Source: Clostridia bacterium (GTDB lineage Bacteria; Bacillota; Clostridia; Christensenellales; UBA1242). Taken from it: 64,000 bases of DNA. Positions 22,951-47,939 of the stretch are shown here, one piece after another. A program made the translations under genes and the position numbers. Where the stretch lies: positions 67,492 through 131,491 of the forward strand of contig JAFTTP010000002.1 in NCBI GenBank assembly GCA_017466725.1, read 5' to 3'. Position 1 is the stretch's first letter. Every line of letters starts with the position of its first letter. Under the pieces are notes generated by a model. It did no database searches. It had not been told where the DNA came from and worked only from the letters and a program-made list of their open reading frames with translations.

Positions 22951-24540
22951 ATGAGCAGTATTAATTTACTATGCAATGCTGCTGTAAACGCCGGAGTTAT
23001 AAGTGGAGTTATCGCCCTCATCGTTGGAGTTGTTGCGGGCGCATTCGTTTATAAAATACTCTTAAGTAAAAAAATTGGAAACAGCAAATCAAATGCAGTT
23101 AAAATTATTGAAGAGGCGTATGCAGAGGCAAAAAGCATAAAGAAAGAATCAGTTCTTGAAGCCAAAGAAGAAGCCCAAAAGATTAAAGAAGAGGCAAATG
23201 CAGAGGCAAAAGAACGTAGAGGCGAGCTTCAAAAACAAGAAGAACGCTTAGATCAAAGAGAAGAATATCTCACAAAAAAAGAAACTTTGTTGGACACGAA
23301 GAGCACTCAACTCGACAATGAAAAAGCTCAACTTGAAAATGACAAAGTAAAACTTACCGAACAAATTGCAGAGCAAAACACTATTAAAGAGCAAATGCTT
23401 GAAAAACTTGAAAAAATGTCTGGGCTTTCAAAACAAGAGGCAAAAGACATTTTAATTGAAAGCGTAACCGAAGAAGCTAAGAAGGATGCAGGCATCTTAG
23501 TAAAGCAAATTGAAGATGACGCTAAAGAGCGCGCAGACAAAATCGCAACAAATATTGTTGTTGGCGCAATACAAAAATGTGCAACTGACCTTTCGTCTGA
23601 AATGACAATCTCAACAGTAGCACTTCCAAATGATGAAATGAAAGGAAGAATTATTGGAAGAGAAGGAAGAAACATCCGCTCAATTGAGGCTGCAACTGGT
23701 GTAGAGCTTATTGTTGACGATACACCAGAAACAATTACTATTTCAAGTTTCGACCCAATACGTAGAGAAATTGCTAGATTAAGTTTAGAAAAACTTATTG
23801 TTGACGGAAGAATTCATCCTACAAGAATTGAAGAAATCGTTGAAAAAGCGACTCACGACGTAGATAAGTTTATTAAAGAAGCTGGCGAAAACGCTTGCAA
23901 CGAAGTTGGAATTTACAACCTCAACCCAGAACTTGTAAAAATTATGGGAAGACTTAAATATCGTACAAGTTATGGACAAAACTGCTTAAGACACAGCATT
24001 GAGACATCAATCATTGCAGGACTTCTTGCAACTGAACTTGGTGCAAATGTACAAGTGGCTAAACGCGGTGGTTTCTTACACGATTTAGGAAAAGCACTTG
24101 ACCATGAGGTAGAGGGAACACACGTAGCAATTGGCGTTGAGCTTGCAAAAAAATACAAAGAATCTGATGCAGTTGTTCACTGTATTCATGCACACCATGG
24201 TGAAGTACCATTTGGATCGGTTGAGGCAATCATCGTTCAGGTGGCAGACGCAATTTCAAGCTCTAGACCAGGTGCGAGACGAGAAAACCTTGAAAACTAT
24301 ATCAAACGTTTACAACAACTTGAAACAATCTGTAACGACTTCAAAGGCGTAGAAAAGTCTTATGCAATTCAAGCGGGCCGAGAGGTAAGAATCATTGTAA
24401 AACCAAATCAAATTACAGATGGTGATGCTGTATTCCTTGTAAAAGACATCGCAAAGAAAATTGAACAAGAAATGCAATATCCTGGTCAAATCAAGGTTGT
24501 TGTAATCCGTGAAAATCGTTTTACAGAAACAGCAAAATAA
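22951..24540 (+). CDS. rny: Ribonuclease Y
   Basis: N-terminal TM, coiled coil, KH domain (GRIIGREGRNIR) and HD domain (RHSIE...GFLHDLGK). The ATG at 22951 after AAAGGGGA is preferred over 22903. Confidence 0.95.
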   Translation: MSSINLLCNAAVNAGVISGVIALIVGVVAGAFVYKILLSKKIGNSKSNAVKIIEEAYAEAKSIKKESVLEAKEEAQKIKEEANAEAKERRGELQKQEERLDQREEYLTKKETLLDTKSTQLDNEKAQLENDKVKLTEQIAEQNTIKEQMLEKLEKMSGLSKQEAKDILIESVTEEAKKDAGILVKQIEDDAKERADKIATNIVVGAIQKCATDLSSEMTISTVALPNDEMKGRIIGREGRNIRSIEAATGVELIVDDTPETITISSFDPIRREIARLSLEKLIVDGRIHPTRIEEIVEKATHDVDKFIKEAGENACNEVGIYNLNPELVKIMGRLKYRTSYGQNCLRHSIETSIIAGLLATELGANVQVAKRGGFLHDLGKALDHEVEGTHVAIGVELAKKYKESDAVVHCIHAHHGEVPFGSVEAIIVQVADAISSSRPGARRENLENYIKRLQQLETICNDFKGVEKSYAIQAGREVRIIVKPNQITDGDAVFLVKDIAKKIEQEMQYPGQIKVVVIRENRFTETAK

Positions 24541-24546
24541 CAAAAA

Positions 24547-24577
24547 AAACTTTATCATCTAGATAAAGTTTTTTTAT
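24547..24577. terminator. Bidirectional terminator between rny and XRE gene
   Basis: AAACTTTAT-N7-ATAAAGTTT, flanked by an A8 run on the left and a T6 run on the right. Confidence 0.75.
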
Positions 24578-25185
24578 TTAATTACCTTCTTATGCCAAGC
24601 ACGTTTATGACAATGCGGGCATTTCATATATCTTGTTCGATTAACATGTAGCGCCCATAAAACTTGATGATATGTTGGCACATACTTATGATTGCATTTG
24701 CTGCAAATATAATATCCGGCTACTTGTTCAATTTTTAAAGCAAATAATATACCAACCATTGAAATGGTAAGCCCAAACACAATAATCATAATTCGCAGCC
24801 AATCCGGCATCATTAAAAAGCTTGCCAAAGCGGTGAGTGATAATAAAAATATAACGGATAAAAAGCCAATCACTATTTCCATTGCAAGCAATCTTTTATC
24901 AGAATTTTGCTTTACTTCTTCTAGTTCAAGCAGCTTGCCTTCAGCTTTATCAATATATTCTTCTTTAGAAAATCTTTCACCATTTAAAAGTTCGTTGATA
25001 GTGATCCCAAATATTTCACATAATTTTGGTAATGTATTCGTATCTGGCACACCTCGGCCTGTTTCCCATTTAGAAATGGTTTTTTCGCTTACATAAAGAT
25101 GTTTAGCCAAATCAACTTGCGTCATCTTTTTAGCCTTTCTTTCATTTATAATGAAATTGCCAATTTTGTTATAATCCAACCTCAT
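24574..25185 (-). CDS. XRE-family HTH regulator fused to two TM helices and a C-terminal CxxC...CxxC zinc ribbon
   Basis: HTH_3 (MTQVDLAKHLYVSEKTISKWETG), two hydrophobic helices, then CSKCNHKY...CPHCHKRAWH. Confidence 0.75.
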   Translation of the reverse strand: MRLDYNKIGNFIINERKAKKMTQVDLAKHLYVSEKTISKWETGRGVPDTNTLPKLCEIFGITINELLNGERFSKEEYIDKAEGKLLELEEVKQNSDKRLLAMEIVIGFLSVIFLLSLTALASFLMMPDWLRIMIIVFGLTISMVGILFALKIEQVAGYYICSKCNHKYVPTYHQVLWALHVNRTRYMKCPHCHKRAWHKKVIK

Positions 25186-25334
25186 TTCAACTCCTTAATT
25201 AAATTATAGCACATTCCTTTAATATATTGCTATAAAATGCAACAAGTAAACTCTACAAATCTTCCTATGCATATTTTTTGGCAAACTTTTTTCTTTTAAT
25301 CATAAAATTACCATCTAATCTATATATTTACTAT

Positions 25335-25946: not shown

Positions 25947-27638
25947 TTATCTCCAGTATTTAACTATAGCAATTCTTTTTATGTAATATCTCATAGGTAT
26001 TGCAACAACTCCCATTACAAATGGCAATACAAGTGTGGTTGTTTGAAGTTTGAAATCAATAAAGATTGCTCCAGCTATAAAGTTTAACGCAACTACTACG
26101 CCACAGAATAGAATGAAAAGCAACCAAATGGCCCATTGTGGCAACATTTGTTTTGGCAGCCATCCTCTAGATTTTTTCAACTTGTATATCCTGTACACTA
26201 CGTCAAATATAAATAGGGCAGGTAAAACGTAATATAAAAATTCTGTGCCTGCATCTAAAAGCCCATTAGCATTTATCACCACATAAGTTACAGCAGACAG
26301 CGCCACCGCAAGCAATAGGGCAATAATGCTTACCACCATATACAACTTATTAGTATTATGTCTTAATTTTCTGGTTGGCTTTTGATAAACATTAAATGGT
26401 AAATCCTGACTGTTGTAATAGTCTTTTAAGTCACTATAATCATATATAGCGTCCTCTCTAAACTCTGCTGAAGATTGATCTCTCGTTTTCGAATAAAGTT
26501 GAATTAACCTTTCTTTGTGAGATGGATCAATTGTCACGTCTCTCTTTGGGGCAGGCAGCCTTGTTTCTTTTACATTTTCAGAAATAATTTGTAGACGTGG
26601 CGGCTCAATCTTTTTTGCCTTTTCAACTTCTCTCTCGTCTATTCTGTTTGTAATATAAACAGCATCATTTTTAAGTTCTTCTTTTTGAGCAGTTTCAGCA
26701 AAAGCTTTATGTTCTGTTCTGTATCCGCCAATTTGACGCATAAAATCATCTTGACTTAATCTCTGCTGATCTTGATATTTAGTTTTGTTTTGCATCAAAG
26801 CATTCTTAAATTCTTCAATATTAGACTGTTTCTTATCTTGACTGGAAGCCAATGGATCTGTAGCAGCCATTGAAATTTGGTCTTCTGCAAAACTGCGTCT
26901 TTTTCTGTATTTGTTTATGTCTTTAGAAATATCATACAGCTTTTTGTTATATTCATCCGCTGTTTGCTGGCTTAAAAACACGCCATCATCAGCTTTTTGA
27001 CCAATCTGGTTATCAGCCGGCTCAACTTCTTCTTGTTGTTGAGTTAACGCATGCTTAATGGAAAATGCATATGCTGGTTGAGTAGGGGCAGGGTGCGCTT
27101 GCTGCACAGGTGTAATTTGTTGTATAATTGCTCGCTCTTCAATTGATTTTTCTTCCTCTACTTGAGCTTGTTCTTCATGACTTTCTTCGTTGCTAAATGA
27201 AAAGTCAAAGAAATCATCTTCGCTTTCATCCTCATTAATTGTGTCCGCTGCTTTAGTATCTTCTAAAGAAATTGCAACTTCCTCTTGTAAGAAATTTTCA
27301 TTTGATGCAACAGGGGATTGTCCATCATCAAAAGCTTTAAATACATCGATATTATTTCGATCAAAATATTCCTTAAGCTCTTGATAAAATTCTCGACCTT
27401 TTTCAGTCAAGGAATAATATTTACGGTTAGGCCCTAAATCGCTGCTTTTTAAGTAAGATGAAATGTAGCCTTGTTTCTCCATGCGGGTAAGATTTGAATA
27501 TACACTAGGTTTCTTCAAATTTATTCTGCCATTACTTTTTTCTGAAATTTCGCTTATAATGTCAAGCCCGTAGAAATCTCGCTCTTGCATACAAGTCAAA
27601 ATAAGAAATGATAGTTGTCCTTTAGCATAAAGTTCCAT
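25947..27638 (-). CDS. PadR-family winged-helix regulator fused to long acidic/Gln-rich linker and C-terminal 4-TM domain
   Basis: The N-terminal ~95 aa are PadR-like (FYGLDIISEI...PSVYSNLTRMEKQGYISS...RKYYSLTEKGREFY). The C-terminal ~135 aa contain about 4 hydrophobic helices. Confidence 0.75.
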   Translation of the reverse strand: MELYAKGQLSFLILTCMQERDFYGLDIISEISEKSNGRINLKKPSVYSNLTRMEKQGYISSYLKSSDLGPNRKYYSLTEKGREFYQELKEYFDRNNIDVFKAFDDGQSPVASNENFLQEEVAISLEDTKAADTINEDESEDDFFDFSFSNEESHEEQAQVEEEKSIEERAIIQQITPVQQAHPAPTQPAYAFSIKHALTQQQEEVEPADNQIGQKADDGVFLSQQTADEYNKKLYDISKDINKYRKRRSFAEDQISMAATDPLASSQDKKQSNIEEFKNALMQNKTKYQDQQRLSQDDFMRQIGGYRTEHKAFAETAQKEELKNDAVYITNRIDEREVEKAKKIEPPRLQIISENVKETRLPAPKRDVTIDPSHKERLIQLYSKTRDQSSAEFREDAIYDYSDLKDYYNSQDLPFNVYQKPTRKLRHNTNKLYMVVSIIALLLAVALSAVTYVVINANGLLDAGTEFLYYVLPALFIFDVVYRIYKLKKSRGWLPKQMLPQWAIWLLFILFCGVVVALNFIAGAIFIDFKLQTTTLVLPFVMGVVAIPMRYYIKRIAIVKYWR

Positions 27639-27660
27639 AACAAATACCTCTTATATTTAG

Positions 27661-27690
27661 ATTATAAATCATATAAAAAGACAATGTCAA
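27661..27690 (-). promoter_or_regulatory. Candidate sigma-A promoter for PadR-fusion gene
   Basis: On the minus strand: TTGACA (27690-27685), 18 nt, TATAAT (27666-27661). The AAGAGG SD lies further downstream. Confidence 0.6.
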
Positions 27691-27916
27691 ACAAAATAGG
27701 GGAAAATTTAACAAAAAACAGCTATTCTGCATTGCATACTACCATTAAAATAGGGGATTAGCAATCTCTTTTTATTATTTTCATGACAAAAAAGGGTATT
27801 TTAAACTCATCAAACAGCCAACAATACTAATTTTTAAGTAATTTACGCCATTTTTAAGCAATAACATCTATTATTTTACCTAAAAACACACCATTTTGAA
27901 TAAGAGAGGAATAAAA

Positions 27917-27993
27917 AAAACTAGCATGGTTAAAACACCTACATCTCTGCGTAAAACACAAGTTTTACGCAGAGATGACTACATACTAGCTTT
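27917..27993 (-). terminator. Nested (hairpin-within-hairpin) terminator of serS operon
   Basis: Perfect inner 16-bp stem, 27942-27957 with 27962-27977 and loop ACAA. Outer 12-bp arms at 27917-27928 and 27982-27993. All outer positions pair only in the minus-strand RNA (two G-U pairs). A U run follows. Confidence 0.6.
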
Positions 27994-28031
27994 ATTTTTA
28001 AACTATTTTGTTATATTTTTATAATATCAAT

Positions 28032-28050
28032 ATCGTACAAAATCGTACAA
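28032..28050. repeat. Tandem direct repeat ATCGTACAA x2 (10-bp period)
   Basis: ATCGTACAA occurs at 28032-28040 and again at 28042-28050. Confidence 0.8.
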
Positions 28051-28093
28051 TTTATAATAATTTTATAATTTTTTATTGCATACTAGTTACATA

Positions 28094-29077
28094 CTAGACA
28101 TCTTGTTCTTCTTGAGTGCTAATCGTTGACAAAATCTTGTGCAAGCCAAAGCCGCTATCGCCACAACGCTTATCTTCAAATATGGTCAATTCTTCATTTA
28201 AAATTGAAGGCGTATTCCTTAAACTTCTTACAGATAAATAGTTGACAACTTTTATAAATACTTTATAGAAATCATCACCTACAAAAATATCATCTGGGCA
28301 ATTGCACATTACGCTTTCTAAGAACAGCTGATTTGGCATATGACCATTCACGTTGAAATACAATGCATTAAAGACCTTCATAACTTTTATAAAGTTTTTG
28401 CCAGCAGACTTCTTCTTAGCCTTAAGCTTTAGATATCTTTGATTTAATGCTAGATTTATAAAAGGATTTTTTCTCTTACCTGCGTAATATTTTAATTCCT
28501 TATTTACCAAACTTACTACGTATATTATAATCCTTACATTTGGGCCAAAGTCTTCTTTACCCAAAATTTCTAATTTATTATTCCCCTGATAAACTATAGA
28601 AGTTGGCGAAAGATATTGCGCTATAGATCGTTGCAAATCTTCAGTTAAACTATAAACAGTATATTTACTAGGATCAAACTGAATATTTAATGGTTCAACC
28701 TCTTCTTTCTGCTTTTTTCTTCTCTTGCGCTTTCTTTTTCTAAAATACTTTCTACTTTGCCATGCTATTTTAGCACGCGTTTTTATAATTTCCCAAATTT
28801 TAGACTTTTTAATTGTGTTCAAGTCCAGTTGAGCACTTTCAACCCCAAGAACATATACAAATTCAGAATTATCTACCATGGAATCGCTAAAAAGTTCATT
28901 TACAGGTTGTAAAACAGTGTTTTCCAAAGAAATATACGATACTTGCGTTGCCAAATTTGAAACAGACGCAGTCAACAGTGCGTTGACCTTGTCGTTGATA
29001 CCTTTGACATATGTTTTGCTGTTTTTGTTTGCGATTGACAAAATCAGATCTTTTGAGATTGAAATTTTGGCCATCAA
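28094..29077 (-). CDS. Hypothetical protein with polybasic insert; C-terminal half faintly nucleotidyltransferase-fold-like
   Basis: 327 aa. The AAAGGGGAG SD sits immediately after the serS stop. Polybasic tract RKYFRKRKRKRRKKQK, and FIKVMKVFNALYF...NQLFLESVMCNCP. I recognise no family with confidence. Confidence 0.6.
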   Translation of the reverse strand: MMAKISISKDLILSIANKNSKTYVKGINDKVNALLTASVSNLATQVSYISLENTVLQPVNELFSDSMVDNSEFVYVLGVESAQLDLNTIKKSKIWEIIKTRAKIAWQSRKYFRKRKRKRRKKQKEEVEPLNIQFDPSKYTVYSLTEDLQRSIAQYLSPTSIVYQGNNKLEILGKEDFGPNVRIIIYVVSLVNKELKYYAGKRKNPFINLALNQRYLKLKAKKKSAGKNFIKVMKVFNALYFNVNGHMPNQLFLESVMCNCPDDIFVGDDFYKVFIKVVNYLSVRSLRNTPSILNEELTIFEDKRCGDSGFGLHKILSTISTQEEQDV

Positions 29078-29086
29078 AACTCCCCT

Positions 29087-30373
29087 TTATTTATTAGGAT
29101 AAATTTTTTCTATTCCGCCCATATATGGTCTCAACGCAACTGGTACGTTTATGCTGCCATCTTCGTTGACATTGTTTTCAAGCAAAGCAATCAATGCTCT
29201 TGGGCTGGCGAGAACAGTGTTGTTTAATGTATGAAGGTAATATGTGCCCTTCTCGCCCTTCGCACGAATACCAAGACGTCTCGCTTGCGCATCTCCAAGT
29301 GTTGAGCAAGAGCCTACTTCAAAATATTTCTTTTGTCTTGGGCTCCACGCTTCTACATCACAACTTTTTACCTTTAAGTCTGCAAGGTCACCGCTGCAGC
29401 ACTCAAGTGTACGTACTGGAATATCAAGATTTTTAAAAACTTCTACAGTATATTGCCACATTTTATTGTACCAATCCATGCTTTCCTCTGGCTTACAAAG
29501 TACAATCATTTCTTGTTTTTCAAATTGATGAACTCTGTACAATCCTCTCTCTTCAAGACCGTGAGCACCGCCCTCTTTTCTAAAGCATGGGCTGTATGAT
29601 GTCATTTTAATAGGCAACGTTTTTTCATCAATAATTTGCCCTTTAAATTTGCCAATCATAGAGTGTTCGCTTGTACCAATCAAAAACAAATCTTGGCCTT
29701 CAATTTTGTACATCATTGCATCCATTTCAGCAAAACTCATCACCCCATTAACGACATCACTTCTGATCATAAATGGTGGGATTGCATAGATAAATCCTTG
29801 TGAAATCATATAGTCTCTGCCATAAGCAATCATCGCTTCGTGAAGGCGTGCCGCATTGCCAAGAAGATAGTAGAACCCTTCTCCGCTTGTTCTGCCCGCG
29901 CTTTCCTTATCTAAACCAGAAATGCTATCTAAAATATCAGCGTGATAAGGGATTTCAAATGAAGGTACTTTAGGCTCGCCATATTTTTGAATTTCAACAT
30001 TTTGACTATCGTCTTTACCAATTGGAACAGATTTATCTATAATATTTGGAATTGCCATCATAATTTGTTTGATTTCGGCACCAAGTTCTTCTTCTCTCAC
30101 TTCAATTGCAGCCATTTTTTCGTTGTTTGCAACAACTTGAGCCTTAATTGCATTTGCCTCTTCAACTTTCTTCTCTCTCATCAATTTGCCAATTTCTTGA
30201 CTTAATGAATTTCGAGCTGCCCTCAGAGCATCACCTTCTTGTTTAAGTTTTCGATGTTCGCTGTCAAGCATAATTACCTTATCAACCAATTCAAGTTTAG
30301 CATCTTGAAACTTTTTCTTAATATTTTCTTTTACCAACTCTGGATTTGTTCTAATTAAATTAATGTCTATCAT
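29087..30373 (-). CDS. serS: Seryl-tRNA synthetase
   Basis: 428 aa with an N-terminal coiled-coil arm and class II motifs (FRKEGGAHG, GSCSTLGDAQARR). Confidence 0.96.
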   Translation of the reverse strand: MIDINLIRTNPELVKENIKKKFQDAKLELVDKVIMLDSEHRKLKQEGDALRAARNSLSQEIGKLMREKKVEEANAIKAQVVANNEKMAAIEVREEELGAEIKQIMMAIPNIIDKSVPIGKDDSQNVEIQKYGEPKVPSFEIPYHADILDSISGLDKESAGRTSGEGFYYLLGNAARLHEAMIAYGRDYMISQGFIYAIPPFMIRSDVVNGVMSFAEMDAMMYKIEGQDLFLIGTSEHSMIGKFKGQIIDEKTLPIKMTSYSPCFRKEGGAHGLEERGLYRVHQFEKQEMIVLCKPEESMDWYNKMWQYTVEVFKNLDIPVRTLECCSGDLADLKVKSCDVEAWSPRQKKYFEVGSCSTLGDAQARRLGIRAKGEKGTYYLHTLNNTVLASPRALIALLENNVNEDGSINVPVALRPYMGGIEKIYPNK

Positions 30374-30493
30374 ATTTTCTCCTTAATGTTTTAATTATAG
30401 CCCTATCGTTGAAATTAGTCAAATATTTTCATATATTTAAGCATCAAAATATAATATAAATTTAGTATTTTACGAAGAGATGTGTTTTTTTGC

Positions 30494-30522
30494 TTGGATT
30501 TTTTTTTAAATCATCCTATAAT
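30494..30522 (+). promoter_or_regulatory. Candidate sigma-A promoter placing TSS at recombinase ATG
   Basis: TTGGAT (30494-30499), 17 nt, TATAAT (30517-30522). Then 6 nt (AAAACT) and the ATG at 30529; no SD. Confidence 0.5.
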
Positions 30523-30528
30523 AAAACT

Positions 30529-31578
30529 ATGGCAAGTCAATCAATTAATTTTTATCAAAAAAGAGACATACAAAACAGGCTAAAAATGGCAAAATATACC
30601 GACAAGTTGCCAGATTTTTGTTTTGACTACTTTATAGGGATTGAAAACAACACCTCCTCCCTCACACGATATAACTACTCAATGGATATTTATATTTTCT
30701 TCAACTACCTCGCCCAATACATTTTCAAGAAAAAAGAAAACACAATTACATTAGACGACTTAAACAAATTAAAGGCAAAAGACTTAGAACAATACCTCTC
30801 TTACCTTTCATATTACGAGATTGATGGCAAACTTTATAAAAACGATGAGAAAGGTAAAGCGAGAAAATTATCTGCAGTTCGCTCACTTTTTAAATATCTT
30901 TTTAATCACGATCTACTTATTTCAAACGTGGCAAGCAAAGTAGCCACCCCAAAACTACACAACAAAGAAATTGTACGATTAGAGGAAGATGAGGTATCTC
31001 GCTTAATTAACGCCGTAGAATGCCCTACTCAGTTTACCAGTCGCCAACAAGCATACAATAAAAATACATTTGAGCGCGATAATGCCATCATCACACTATT
31101 TCTTGGCACCGGCATACGTATTTCTGAACTTGTAGGCCTAAACTTAGAAAGTTTTGACTTTTCTCAAAATGCATTTGTAGTTACAAGAAAAGGCGGAAAT
31201 CAGACAATGCTGTACTTTTCTGGTGAAGTTGCATCAGCGCTCAAAACATGGCTTGAAAAGAGGGCTACACTAAATTTACCTGAAGAAGAAAAAGCTATGT
31301 TTATTTCTCTTCAAAATCAACGCATTTCTATTAGAGCGGTTGAAAATTTAGTAAAAAAGTTTGCCCAAATTGCTTCCCCCTTAAAAAACATATCGCCACA
31401 TAAACTAAGAAGCACCTATGGCACCAACTTATACAAAGAGACTAAAGACATTTACATTGTTGCAGATGTGCTTGGGCATAAGGATGTAAATACCACCAAA
31501 CGCCACTACGCAGCGATAAGTGAAGATATGCGAAAAAGTGTTGCTGGCAAAGTAAAAATCCATAAAGACGTTGAATAA
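30529..31578 (+). CDS. Tyrosine site-specific recombinase (XerC/XerD family)
   Basis: Catalytic residues recognisable (GTGIRISEL, HKLRSTYGT, LGHKDVNTTKRHYAA). The ORF track starts at TTG 30490; ATG 30529 is preferred. Confidence 0.8.
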   Translation: MASQSINFYQKRDIQNRLKMAKYTDKLPDFCFDYFIGIENNTSSLTRYNYSMDIYIFFNYLAQYIFKKKENTITLDDLNKLKAKDLEQYLSYLSYYEIDGKLYKNDEKGKARKLSAVRSLFKYLFNHDLLISNVASKVATPKLHNKEIVRLEEDEVSRLINAVECPTQFTSRQQAYNKNTFERDNAIITLFLGTGIRISELVGLNLESFDFSQNAFVVTRKGGNQTMLYFSGEVASALKTWLEKRATLNLPEEEKAMFISLQNQRISIRAVENLVKKFAQIASPLKNISPHKLRSTYGTNLYKETKDIYIVADVLGHKDVNTTKRHYAAISEDMRKSVAGKVKIHKDVE

Positions 31579-47274: not shown

Positions 47275-47793
47275 TTAACTATTTTCTAATTCATCTTGAT
47301 TGCCTTCACTCTCAATCAACTCACATTCATATGCTAAAAAGTTAAACAATCGCATAAATAAAGATTCCACTCTTGGCACTCTGCTGCCACTATTACAAAA
47401 ACATATGTTACTTCCGCGATGAAAAGACGTCCAAGCTTTTTCATTAGTGTTAGCAATAAATTTTATGGTAAACAAGTCATCTTCTTTTATAATCCGCAAG
47501 GTATTCGCTTCTTCTTCCGGCCAATCTTCACTGATAAAAGTTATTATATTACCATCTAATACTGGCAAATATTTATCATCAACCTTTTTAATAGCGTCAA
47601 ATAATTGACTAAACACGCTAAATGCTATTTTATCAGTATTATCCAATTCAAAAATTGTATTTTCTTTATAATCTTCGGGTATCCAGTATAGGTCAAAATT
47701 ACCACCAACCGTCATAATAAATGACTTTCCACGCCTATCAACTAACTTTACATCATAATATCCCTGTTTGCCTCTTGGTTGTTTTGTAATCAT
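47275..47793 (-). CDS. Hypothetical 172-aa protein
   Basis: ATG at 47793 after AGGGAGAA. The ORF-track N-terminal extension to 47919 is read-through of the tRNA gene. I recognise no family. Confidence 0.6.
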   Translation of the reverse strand: MITKQPRGKQGYYDVKLVDRRGKSFIMTVGGNFDLYWIPEDYKENTIFELDNTDKIAFSVFSQLFDAIKKVDDKYLPVLDGNIITFISEDWPEEEANTLRIIKEDDLFTIKFIANTNEKAWTSFHRGSNICFCNSGSRVPRVESLFMRLFNFLAYECELIESEGNQDELENS

Positions 47794-47835
47794 CCCATTC
47801 TCCCTATAAATAAAAAAACAGGATAACTCCTGCTT

Positions 47836-47917
47836 TGGTGCGGGCGGTGGGAGTCGAACCCACACGGTTTCCCACTTGCCCCTTAAACAAGCGCGTCTGC
47901 CATTCCGCCACGCCCGC
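47836..47917 (-). tRNA. tRNA-Leu, class II, apparent anticodon AAG, encoded CCA
   Basis: 82 nt. Acceptor GCGGGCG/CGCCCGC. D arm GCG-GAAUGGCAGA-CGC. Anticodon stem CUUGU/GCAAG with loop UUAAGGG. 11-nt variable region. T arm GUGGG-UUCGACU-CCCAC, then ACCA. Confidence 0.85.
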
Positions 47918-47939
47918 ACATTTTTTATGATACTCTCTT

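What the first reader, a model, noticed from the sequence alone, without database searches (positions are those of the whole stretch)
28094..29077. Orphan 327-aa protein with an 18-residue polybasic tract, translationally adjacent to serS
The ORF has a good SD placed immediately after the serS stop, so it is very likely co-transcribed with an essential aaRS.

It carries a striking polybasic tract, RKYFRKRKRKRRKKQK (about 28703-28756).

Its C-terminal half (…FIKVMKVFNALYF…NQLFLESVMCNCPDDIF…) reminds me of the helical 'K-x-W … LE-hh' segment that follows the catalytic core in cGAS/DncV/SMODS-type nucleotidyltransferases.

The N-terminal half has only a degenerate G-x-x-S…LDLN where a G[GS]…DxD motif would be expected.

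If the fold call is right, this would be a catalytically degenerate NTase-like protein with a nucleic-acid-binding insert. I recognise no characterised family for it.
Basis: inference. Interest (0 to 1): 0.55.

Follow-up and report, generated by a model that had tools for sequence, protein, structure and literature searches.

The report
Catalytically dead cGAS-like protein, basic arm
The gene after serS encodes a conserved relative of bacterial cGAS-like immune enzymes that has lost every catalytic residue, gained a lysine/arginine-rich arm, and become an ordinary chromosomal gene in a group of uncultured gut Clostridia.

Summary
The ORF is real: 326 aa, ATG at 29074, stop at 28094-28096, minus strand. 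It starts 12 nt after the serS stop, behind an AGGGGAG Shine-Dalgarno. The polybasic tract is real, and the densest K/R window falls in the same insert in all 135 relatives examined.

It is not an orphan. Single-copy homologues (22-76% identity) occur in at least 80 species of uncultured gut and rumen Clostridia, under purifying selection (dN/dS about 0.04-0.14).

An AlphaFold model matches only CD-NTases, best clade E (CdnE). Family profiles hit CdnE structures by sequence (E = 1.5e-12).

The catalytic signature is gone. GS has become N59-E60, DxD has become E71-x-V73, and the third Asp has become I183 (Asn in most relatives).

No CBASS effector or Cap gene is nearby, and there are no phage or plasmid copies. 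Linkage to serS is lineage-specific: other clades place the gene after gapA, or alone beside an XerS-like recombinase.

Best reading: a domesticated CD-NTase pseudoenzyme that is constitutively expressed. It probably binds nucleic acid, or another polyanion, through its basic arm. That function is inferred, not shown.

The parts
28094..29074 (-). CDS of the CdnE-like pseudo-nucleotidyltransferase (326 aa; the stop TAG at 28094-28096 is included).
   Evidence: define the ORF. One search shows conserved N-termini that fix the ATG. Searches find homologues. One search gives dN/dS of 0.04-0.14.
29080..29086 (-). Shine-Dalgarno AGGGGAG. It directly abuts the serS stop (TAA, 29087-29089) and lies 5 nt before the ATG.
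28895..28900 (-). N59-E60, in the position of the CD-NTase G-S nucleotide-binding motif. Across the family this is N in 113/135 and E or D in 131/135.
   Evidence: The and 73 alignments place it against LQGSY of EmCdnE and LpCdnE. One search shows strand 53-57 followed by a turn. One search gives the counts.
28856..28864 (-). E71-F72-V73, in the position of the catalytic [DE]-h-[DE] on strand beta-2. Position 71 is variable. Position 73 is D or E in 66/135 relatives and V here.
   Evidence: (S-D-V-D-I-V aligned with S-e-l-d-i-f).
28526..28528 (-). I183, in the position of the third catalytic Asp (the 'aDVhP' strand of CdnE). It is Asn in 69/135 relatives, and Asp is not among the eight commonest residues there.
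   Evidence: (ininiYPv aligned with TADVIPC and DADVVPA).
28670..28837 (-). Family-specific insert, residues 80-135, between strand beta-2 and the conserved Y138 helix. It holds the conserved Q-h-E-h-N motif, an amphipathic helix with W94 and W105, the polybasic tract, and a variable acidic linker.
   Evidence: helices 81-89 and 93-119, disorder at 120-130, and low pLDDT from residue 91 to about 130; the segment aligned to query residues 88-138 is 41-59 residues long with net charge +7 to +21 in all 135 members. CdnE structures have only about 15-20 residues here.
28706..28753 (-). Polybasic tract R108-K123 (RKYFRKRKRKRRKKQK).
   Evidence: An 18-residue window holds 13 K/R, matched by 0 of 20,000 shuffles. 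K/R is the majority residue at every aligned position 109-118.
28097..28453 (-). C-terminal helical domain, residues 208-326. This is the region that aligns by sequence with the C-terminal half of solved CdnE proteins. It includes R213, K220, K233, N236, N248-Q249, E253-S254, P260 and N278-Y279.
   Evidence: Searches align it with RmCdnE, EmCdnE, LpCdnE, ClCdnE and EfCdnE; distant family members carry Pfam PF26305 CD_NTase_C.
29087..30373 (-). serS (seryl-tRNA synthetase), the upstream cistron of the two-gene operon.
   Evidence: TIGR00414, 408 bits against a cut-off of 301.65. One search finds no terminator between the genes.
30394..30422 (-). Sigma-70-like promoter (TTGACT-17-TATAAT, 11/12) upstream of serS. 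It is the probable promoter of the serS-X operon.
   Evidence: This is a consensus match only.
27942..27977 (-). Intrinsic-terminator-like hairpin (perfect 16-bp stem, 4-nt loop) ending the operon.

Best explanation
The gene encodes a domesticated, catalytically dead descendant of a clade-E (CdnE-like) cGAS/DncV-like nucleotidyltransferase.

Shown:
- It keeps the two-lobed CD-NTase fold and most structural residues of CdnE.
- The G-S motif and all three metal-binding carboxylates are replaced.
- A roughly 55-residue insert with a polybasic arm has been added after strand beta-2.
- It is a single-copy chromosomal gene under purifying selection in a large clade of uncultured gut and rumen Clostridia.
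- It is not in a CBASS operon.
- It is placed so that it rides on housekeeping or sigma-A-type promoters. Here it is the second cistron of a serS operon.

Inferred:
- It makes no cyclic oligonucleotide.
- It acts as a non-enzymatic binding protein. The CD-NTase scaffold, possibly with a retained nucleotide or ligand pocket lined by R213, K220, K/R233 and N236, presents a flexible +13 to +15 arm.
- The arm clamps a polyanion. RNA or DNA is most likely, by analogy with the nucleic-acid-binding surfaces of OAS, cGAS and Ssc-CdnE03.
For: Real and conserved.
- 24 close homologues and 94 cluster representatives were found.
- 80 loci come from 80 different genome assemblies, one per assembly.
- dN/dS is 0.04-0.14 in unsaturated pairs, against 0.006-0.08 for serS.

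Fold and homology.
- The AF2 model has pLDDT 82.5 and pTM 0.78.
- The top 50 Foldseek hits are CdnE, CdnC, CdnB, CdnD, cGAS, DncV, MiD51 and ILF2/3.
- Family profiles hit RmCdnE at 1.5e-12, EmCdnE at 7e-9 and LpCdnE at 1.7e-6, and also ClCdnE and EfCdnE.
- 32 of 63 members hit the PADLOC cyclase model PDLC00788.
- The most distant branch carries Pfam CD_NTase_C.

Loss of catalysis.
- GS has become N59-E60, DxD has become E71/V73, and the third Asp has become I183 or Asn. Asp is not among the eight commonest residues at the third position in the 135 sequences.

Not defence, not mobile.
- Neighbours are xerS-like, serS, a long PadR protein, rny, spoIVB and recN. None hits a PADLOC effector.
- There are no matches in phage, plasmid or viral-contig collections.

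Basic arm.
- In 135 of 135 members the densest K/R window lies in the same insert, with 7-14 K/R per 18 residues and insert charge +7 to +21, while the actual sequence varies.
- Median pI is 8.9.

Expression.
- The spacer after serS is 12 nt here. X also sits directly after gapA in clade C (about 10 nt in L049). In clade B it has its own TTGACT…TATAAT promoter and an apparently leaderless ATG.

Precedent.
- An active clade-E cyclase binds structured RNA on a basic surface that includes spine-helix lysines K9 and K13 (PMC10686824).
- K/R at position 8 of this family is conserved in 115 of 135 members.
Against:
- The arm has low model confidence (pLDDT 41-59).
- A pure K/R run could equally bind anionic lipids or an acidic protein.
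- The N-terminal alignments that map the GS and DxD positions are individually insignificant (-2.7 to 3.3 bits). They are trusted only because they agree across three structures, with the predicted strands and with the canonical 12-residue spacing.
- Near-invariant acids E60, E84 and D146 leave room for an unconventional active site.
- No conserved functional partner gene was found that would point to a pathway.
Confidence: 0.55

Rival explanations
1. It is a non-enzymatic adaptor whose polybasic arm binds anionic membrane lipids or an acidic protein partner rather than nucleic acid. It would be a bacterial analogue of MiD51, an inactive cGAS-fold adaptor. One candidate partner is the strongly acidic linker of the membrane-anchored long PadR protein encoded just downstream.
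For: - MiD51 is among the structural matches, at E about 3e-5.
- The long PadR gene follows X in clades A, B and D. Its product has an acidic linker and a hydrophobic C-terminal region read as membrane-spanning (sequence; not tested with a TM predictor).
- The tract is flanked by aromatic residues (W105, Y110, F111), as in some lipid-binding polybasic motifs.
Against: - Clade C lacks the PadR neighbour entirely.
- The arm has no hydrophobic face, since it is a pure K/R run.
- The PadR gene is separated from X by a strong terminator and has its own perfect promoter.
- The protein has no TM segment or lipid anchor.
Confidence: 0.2
2. It is still an enzyme: a nucleotidyltransferase or related transferase with a rebuilt active site that uses the near-invariant E60, E84, D146 and E174/D175 in place of the canonical triad.
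For: - E60, E84, D146 and D/E175 are conserved in 121-131 of 135 members, and E/D174 in 119 of 135.
- Basic residues that align with conserved CdnE positions are retained: R213, K220 and K/R233.
- The most distant branch keeps G-E and E-x-[ED] at the old GS and DxD positions.
Against: - The glycine of the GS motif is lost in about 89% of members, and Glu occupies the Ser position. By established knowledge of Pol-beta-type NTases, this should repel the triphosphate.
- The third carboxylate is not seen in the family.
- D146 and E253 are also conserved in active CdnE as non-catalytic residues, so their conservation is structural.
- Positions 71, 73 and 183 drift freely in the window's clade.
Confidence: 0.1
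3. It is a decaying remnant of a CBASS system, or a spurious or fast-evolving ORF with no function of its own.
For: - The catalytic residues are lost.
- No curated family matches the window protein.
- It evolves faster than serS, xer and rny. For example it is 47% identical where serS is 81%.
Against: - It stays full-length and single-copy in at least 80 species at 22-76% identity.
- dN/dS is 0.04-0.14.
- About 20 near-invariant positions persist, and the basic arm is positionally conserved.
- The model is confidently folded.
- Tight translational coupling has been kept or re-created in three different genomic contexts.
Confidence: 0.03

Closest known systems
Clade-E CD-NTases (CdnE): RmCdnE 6E0K/6E0L, EmCdnE 6E0M-O, LpCdnE 7X4F/Q/T, ClCdnE 7X4A, EfCdnE 7X4C
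   Same: - It has the same two-lobed fold, with Foldseek E = 1.4e-8 and TM 0.57-0.68.
- It is a significant profile-to-sequence homologue, at 1.5e-12.
- It shares the Y138, D146, N…K220, R/K233 and fLE(S/C)LlYNxP motifs.
- It has a similar length of about 300 aa.
   Different: - The GS motif and all three catalytic acids are replaced.
- A roughly 55-residue insert with a polybasic arm follows beta-2, where CdnE has about 15-20 residues.
- There is no effector or Cap gene nearby.
- It is a syntenic, single-copy core gene rather than a mobile defence-island gene.
Ssc-CdnE03 / Sha-CdnE01, the RNA-activated staphylococcal CBASS cyclases (PMC10686824)
   Same: They are clade-E scaffolds that use a positively charged surface, including lysines on the N-terminal spine helix, to bind structured RNA. 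This family has conserved K/R at position 8 and a far larger basic element.
   Different: Those enzymes are catalytically active and sit in CBASS operons. Their basic surface belongs to the core fold and is not an inserted arm. RNA binding is untested here.
MiD51/MiD49, MAB21-like proteins and the ILF2/ILF3 DZF domains (eukaryotic catalytically inactive cGAS-fold proteins)
   Same: They have the same fold (MiD51 at E about 3e-5, ILF2/3 at E about 1e-3). They follow the same evolutionary logic: an NTase scaffold kept as a non-catalytic adaptor or nucleic-acid-binding module.
   Different: They are eukaryotic. Sequence searches detected only bacterial CdnE, so inactivation was independent. MiD51 has a TM anchor and DZF proteins heterodimerise, and neither feature is seen here.
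OAS1 / cGAS
   Same: They have the same superfamily fold. Nucleic acid binds a basic platform distinct from the active site.
   Different: They are active enzymes with GS and [DE]x[DE]…D intact. The Foldseek similarity is weaker (E about 2e-4).

Membership tests
CD-NTase (cGAS/DncV-like nucleotidyltransferase; CBASS oligonucleotide cyclase) | Pol-beta-type NTase core plus a C-terminal helical lobe (cGAS/DncV-like fold). | tested here: met
   The AF2 model has pLDDT 82.5. Every Foldseek PDB hit with E <= 1e-3 is a CD-NTase or a cGAS-like fold.
CD-NTase (cGAS/DncV-like nucleotidyltransferase; CBASS oligonucleotide cyclase) | Detectable sequence homology to established CD-NTases. | tested here: met
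   Family profiles hit RmCdnE at 1.5e-12 and 7.5e-11, and also EmCdnE, LpCdnE, ClCdnE and EfCdnE. 32 of 63 members hit PADLOC Cyclase PDLC00788. The window protein alone gives no hit.
CD-NTase (cGAS/DncV-like nucleotidyltransferase; CBASS oligonucleotide cyclase) | h-G-[GS] nucleotide-binding motif after strand beta-1. | tested here: not met
   The window protein has N59-E60. In the family, position 59 is N in 113, G in 15 and other residues in 7 of 135. Position 60 is E in 118, D in 13, S in 2 and A in 2.
CD-NTase (cGAS/DncV-like nucleotidyltransferase; CBASS oligonucleotide cyclase) | Catalytic triad: [DE]-h-[DE] on beta-2 plus a third Asp on the neighbouring strand. | tested here: not met
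   The window protein has E71-F-V73 and I183. In the family the first acid is variable, the second is D or E in 66 of 135, and the third position is Asn in 69 of 135, with Asp not among the eight commonest residues.
CD-NTase (cGAS/DncV-like nucleotidyltransferase; CBASS oligonucleotide cyclase) | An operon with a nucleotide-activated effector (phospholipase, TM, endonuclease, TIR/SAVED, etc.) and often Cap2/Cap3 or HORMA/TRIP13. | tested here: not met
   The neighbours are xerS-like, serS, long PadR, ygjP-like, rny, spoIVB, recN, gapA and spoIIIA. None gives a PADLOC effector hit.
CD-NTase (cGAS/DncV-like nucleotidyltransferase; CBASS oligonucleotide cyclase) | Synthesis of cyclic di- or trinucleotides. 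| not testable with these tools
   This needs a biochemical assay. Loss of the motifs predicts no activity.
Pfam PF26305 CD_NTase_C | A match to the Pfam model. | tested here: inconclusive
   The precomputed annotation shows PF26305 on the distant members P0118, P0129 and P0130, but '-' on the window protein and its close relatives. The local Pfam scan returned no PF26305 hit, even for P0118, P0129 and P0130.
Inactive cGAS-fold adaptors (MiD51 / MAB21 / DZF) | A cGAS-like fold with a degenerate active site, used non-catalytically. | tested here: met
   Fold match and degenerate site. This is a functional analogy only, because sequence searches found only bacterial CdnE.
Inactive cGAS-fold adaptors (MiD51 / MAB21 / DZF) | Common descent with the eukaryotic families, TM anchor (MiD51), or obligate heterodimer (DZF). 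| tested here: not met
   No sequence hit to these families was found. The sequence shows no obvious hydrophobic TM-like segment (by inspection; no TM predictor was run). No paralogous partner gene is nearby.

The most novel reading that the evidence does not exclude
A whole order-level clade of gut Clostridia has converted a CBASS cyclase into a housekeeping, non-catalytic nucleic-acid-binding protein. Candidate roles are an RNA chaperone or sensor, or a nucleoid-associated factor. This would be an independent bacterial parallel to eukaryotic MAB21, MiD51 and ILF2, and the first example of an immune CD-NTase exapted into core cell physiology in bacteria. The polybasic arm would be the ligand clamp, and the old nucleotide pocket may be retained as a regulatory site.
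Probability: 0.35. Interest if true: 0.7.

Novelty: new variant of a known kind. Interest (0 to 1): 0.5.

Why it matters
CD-NTases are treated as diagnostic of CBASS anti-phage defence. This family shows that the scaffold can be inactivated and retained for at least 80 species' worth of evolution as a core gene with a new basic appendage.

- **Annotation.** Half of the diverse family members sampled score against a PADLOC 'Cyclase' model, and Pfam CD_NTase_C hits the most distant branch. Pipelines may therefore report orphan or false CBASS systems in these gut Clostridia.
- **Evolution.** It is a bacterial case of the enzyme-to-adaptor transition known for eukaryotic cGAS relatives. The erosion is graded: clade D keeps G-E and E-x-E, clades B and C keep one Asp, and the window's clade keeps none.
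- **Biology.** It flags an abundant, probably constitutively expressed protein of unknown role in a poorly studied, uncultured gut lineage.

Tried and rejected
- **Direct family searches.** Scans of the window protein against Pfam, NCBIfam, PADLOC, PHROGs and PDB sequences gave nothing significant. The best was Pfam YkuI_C at 19 bits, below the cut-off of 26, and I judged it spurious.
- **Mobile elements.** There is no tblastn match in the phage or plasmid collections and no relative in IMG/VR contigs.
- **serS as a functional partner.** I rejected this as a general rule. Clade B has xer and X without serS, and clade C has gapA then X. The serS-X pair does recur in the most distant branch, so it may be the ancestral arrangement.
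- **A dif site or Xer accessory role.** A classical dif pattern gave 0 hits. A k-mer shared upstream of xer (TCTTGAAATTT) turned out to be serS coding sequence. No evidence was found, so I dropped this line.
- **SOS control.** No Firmicute LexA box (CGAACN4GTTCG, up to 1 mismatch) occurs in the window.
- **T-box or other RNA elements around serS and X.** There were no credible Rfam hits.
I rejected this. The spacing is too short, residues 81-89 are helical in the model, and the alignments place GS and DxD at residues 59-60 and 71-73.
- **Literature.** Searches for inactive or pseudoenzyme CD-NTases in bacteria found nothing relevant.
- **First GTDB scan.** The scan with the very diverse alignment A2 failed for lack of a conserved stretch. 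It succeeded with A3.
Full report
**1. The observation**

The ORF lies on the minus strand at 28094..29077. Homologues all begin MAKI…/MAK[VL]…. The true start is therefore the ATG at 29074, giving 326 aa, with the stop TAG at 28096-28094.

On the coding strand the junction reads AAATAA-AGGGGAG-TTTTG-ATG. The serS stop (29089-29087) abuts a strong Shine-Dalgarno 5 nt before the ATG. serS is a confident equivalog match (TIGR00414, 408 bits).

The scan finds no terminator-like site between the two genes. A perfect 16-bp hairpin with a T-rich tail follows the ORF at 27977-27942. An 11/12 sigma-70-like promoter precedes serS at 30422-30394. The anatomy is that of a bicistronic serS-X operon, inferred from sequence signals.

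The polybasic tract RKYFRKRKRKRRKKQK is residues 108-123 (28706-28753). An 18-residue window holds 13 K/R, and none of 20,000 shuffles of the protein reaches that.

**2. It is a real, conserved gene, not an orphan**

A word-indexed search found 24 homologues at 41-100% identity, all unnamed and all from uncultured Clostridia MAGs or gut and rumen metagenomes. An exhaustive HMMER scan of 1.84 billion cluster representatives found 94 clusters with E <= 1e-3, down to 23% identity and mostly about 315 aa.

A scan of GTDB species representatives returned 80 loci, which is the cap, from 80 different assemblies, one per assembly. They are labelled Clostridia, Clostridiales, Christensenella sp. or Candidatus Caccovivens (taxonomy).

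Nei-Gojobori dN/dS for unsaturated pairs is 0.04-0.14. Examples are L028/L033 at 0.044, L039/L083 at 0.038 and L016/L017 at 0.135. serS in the same pairs gives 0.006-0.08.

There are no relatives in the phage, plasmid or IMG/VR collections, and no viral structural match.

**3. What it is**

The window protein alone hits no family in Pfam, NCBIfam, PADLOC, PHROGs or PDB sequences.

An AlphaFold2 model built on the 24-sequence alignment is confident (mean pLDDT 82.5, pTM 0.78). The exceptions are residues 1-3 and the stretch from residue 91 to about 130 (block means 41-59; below 50 at 120-130).

Foldseek against the PDB returns only CD-NTases and cGAS-like folds:
- LpCdnE 7X4T, E = 1.4e-8, TM 0.60/0.66
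- RmCdnE 6E0K, E = 1.9e-8
- EmCdnE, ClCdnE and EfCdnE
- then CdnC, CdnB, CdnD, cGAS and DncV
- then the inactive MiD51 and ILF2/ILF3

Sequence homology follows once the family is profiled. A 63-member profile hits RmCdnE at 1.5e-12, EmCdnE at 7e-9 and LpCdnE at 1.7e-6. A second profile of the more divergent branches also reaches ClCdnE and EfCdnE.

Thirty-two of 63 members individually match the PADLOC CBASS 'Cyclase' model PDLC00788, with a best E of 2e-11. The most distant branch (P0118, P0129, P0130) carries Pfam PF26305 CD_NTase_C in precomputed annotation.

The FLESVMCNCPDDIF segment aligns with FLECLLYNVPDSKF of RmCdnE.

**4. The catalytic site is gone**

The profile alignments to EmCdnE and LpCdnE put family '…v-N-[ED]-f…' against 'L-Q-G-S-Y'. 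They put '…n-S-e-l-D-i-f' against 'N-S-D-V-D-I-V'. These N-terminal segments score only -2.7 to 3.3 bits on their own. They are trusted for three reasons:
- They agree between structures.
- They agree with the model's strands (beta-1 at 53-57, beta-2 at 72-78).
- They reproduce the canonical 12-residue spacing.

The third-Asp strand 'a-D-V-h-P' aligns with family 'i-N-i-Y-P'.

In the window protein the equivalents are N59-E60, E71-F-V73 and I183. Counts across 135 family sequences:

| Position | Counts |
|---|---|
| 59 | N in 113, G in 15 |
| 60 | E in 118, D in 13, S in 2 |
| 71 | variable |
| 73 | D in 57, E in 9 |
| 183 | N in 69; Asp not among the eight commonest residues |

The decay is graded. 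The most distant branch keeps G-E and E-I-[ED]. Clades B and C keep one Asp. The window's clade keeps none.

By established knowledge of Pol-beta-type NTases, two-metal catalysis needs all three carboxylates, and the G-S turn holds the triphosphate. The family as a whole should therefore be inactive as a canonical cyclase.

Q82-h-E84-h-N86 is a near-invariant, family-specific motif (Q in 103, E in 118, N in 116 of 135) at the start of the insert, in a predicted helix.

Many other conserved residues are shared with active CdnE and are probably structural or ligand-lining. These are Y138, D146, K220, K/R233, E253, P260 and N278.

**5. The insert**

Between beta-2 and the Y138 helix, CdnE structures have roughly 15-20 residues. 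This family has about 55, at positions 80-135. The insert has four parts:
- the QhEhN motif
- an amphipathic helix with W94 and W105
- the K/R run
- a variable acidic linker

In all 135 members the densest K/R window of the whole protein falls inside the segment aligned to query residues 88-138. It holds 7-14 K/R per 18 residues. That aligned segment is 41-59 residues long with net charge +7 to +21. K/R is the majority residue at each aligned position 109-118, although the exact sequence drifts. This is conservation of charge and position rather than sequence, as expected for electrostatic binding to a polyanion. Median pI is 8.9.

**6. Genomic context**

tblastn of the window's proteins against all loci and called-gene tables define four arrangements.

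| Clade | Identity to the window protein | Arrangement |
|---|---|---|
| A (includes the window) | 32-76% | spoIVB, xerS-like (divergent), serS then X, long PadR, …, rny |
| D (most distant) | 22-25% | lexA, xer (divergent), serS then X, ygjP-like, long PadR |
| B | about 28% | xer divergent from X with no serS, then ygjP-like and long PadR |
| C (includes Ca. Caccovivens) | about 30% | rpiB-…-gapA then X, followed by the spoIIIA operon; about 10 nt separates gapA and X in L049 |

One locus has xer, serS, X and then ruvCAB (L060).

In clade B the sequence upstream of X shows TTGACT-type -35 boxes and TATAAT or TGnTATAAT -10 boxes. These end 4-7 nt before the ATG, and there is no Shine-Dalgarno. 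That suggests a sigma-A promoter and a leaderless mRNA (consensus-based inference).

So the serS linkage is old but dispensable. The constant theme is placement behind a strong housekeeping promoter.

No neighbour resembles a CBASS effector or Cap protein. The PADLOC scan of five neighbours gave only generic HTH hits.

**7. Mechanism**

Shown:
- The protein has a CdnE-derived fold.
- The catalytic motifs are lost.
- It carries a conserved basic insert.
- It has core, single-copy status under purifying selection.
- It has no CBASS partners.

Inferred:
- The protein is a pseudoenzyme that uses the CD-NTase scaffold as a binding module and its flexible +13 to +15 arm to hold a polyanion.
- Nucleic acid is the most likely ligand, for three reasons.
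  - The superfamily repeatedly binds RNA or DNA on basic surfaces, as in OAS1 and cGAS. The clade-E cyclase Ssc-CdnE03 binds structured phage RNA through spine-helix lysines K9 and K13 (PMC10686824).
  - This family keeps K/R at position 8 in 115 of 135 members.
  - The arm lacks a hydrophobic face.
- A retained nucleotide pocket (R213, K220, K/R233, N236) is possible, as in ADP-binding MiD51. The MiD51 comparison rests on my own knowledge.

Rivals:
- a lipid or acidic-protein adaptor, about 0.2
- a rebuilt active site using E60, E84 and D146, about 0.1
- a non-functional remnant, about 0.03, which is effectively refuted

**8. Comparison and novelty**

The protein is homologous to clade-E CD-NTases. 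It fails the family's defining catalytic and operonic features, so it should not be filed as a CBASS cyclase. Functionally it resembles the eukaryotic inactive cGAS-fold proteins, but it arose independently from a bacterial CdnE-like ancestor.

Literature searches found no description of bacterial catalytically dead CD-NTases. I rate it a new variant of a known kind.

Interest is moderate, at 0.5. The evolutionary point is clear and there is an annotation pitfall. However, the function is unproven and the hosts are uncultured.

Noticed in passing
window ~24000-25200 (GC-skew switch) and 30490-31578 (+): GC skew and gene orientation both flip at about 24.5 kb: plus-strand genes with positive skew before, minus-strand genes with negative skew after. 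This is the pattern of a replication terminus. An XerS-like single tyrosine recombinase (NF003462, 178 bits, below the cut-off of 267) sits about 6 kb away. No classical dif site was found.
   Followed up: partly
window 30374-30489: serS has only 116 bp of upstream sequence, holding a sigma-70-like promoter. The Rfam scan found no T-box leader, although T-box control of serS is common in Firmicutes.
   Followed up: partly
window 27639-28093: The 455-bp AT-rich spacer after the gene contains three elements. There is a perfect 16-bp terminator hairpin (27942-27977). A CATACTA/TAGTATG motif recurs at 27734-41, 27980-89, 28078-85 and 28088-97. A perfect TTGACA-18-TATAAT promoter (27690-27661) precedes the long PadR gene. 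The repeats might be operator sites.
   Followed up: no
window 25947-27638 (-): The 563-aa 'long PadR' protein has an N-terminal PadR winged helix, a long acidic and Q-rich low-complexity linker, and a hydrophobic C-terminal region that reads as multi-pass TM (by inspection; not tested with a TM predictor). This would make it a membrane-tethered transcription factor. It is conserved downstream of X in three of the four clades, and its linker length varies widely (558-650 aa proteins).
   Followed up: partly
L063-L082 (clade B loci), about 170 nt upstream of the X start: X homologues that are not behind serS have sigma-A-like promoters whose -10 box ends 4-7 nt before the ATG, with no Shine-Dalgarno. 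This implies leaderless translation.
   Followed up: partly
family members P0043-P0109 (alignment A2): Half of the diverse family members score against PADLOC CBASS 'Cyclase' HMMs (best E 2e-11), although the family lacks the third catalytic Asp and almost all members lack the G-S motif. These could be called as orphan CBASS cyclases by defence-finder pipelines.
   Followed up: yes
window 47275-47919 (-) and 47836-47917 (-): A 214-aa mechanical ORF overlaps the only tRNA gene in the window (tRNA-Leu, anticodon AAG). The ORF is almost certainly spurious.
   Followed up: no
L087 8296-8967 (-), L088 4608-5273 (-), L065 6906-7556 (-): A YgjP-like (PF01863, M48/WLM-type) metallohydrolase gene lies between X and the long PadR gene in clades B and D. 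It is absent from the window.
   Followed up: no
L033 (CAVCJG010000004.1): A contig labelled 'Eggerthellaceae bacterium' carries the full Clostridia-type spoIVB-xer-serS-X-PadR-rny block. It closely resembles L028: the X genes are about 98% identical at the protein level. The bin is probably mislabelled or contaminated.
   Followed up: no
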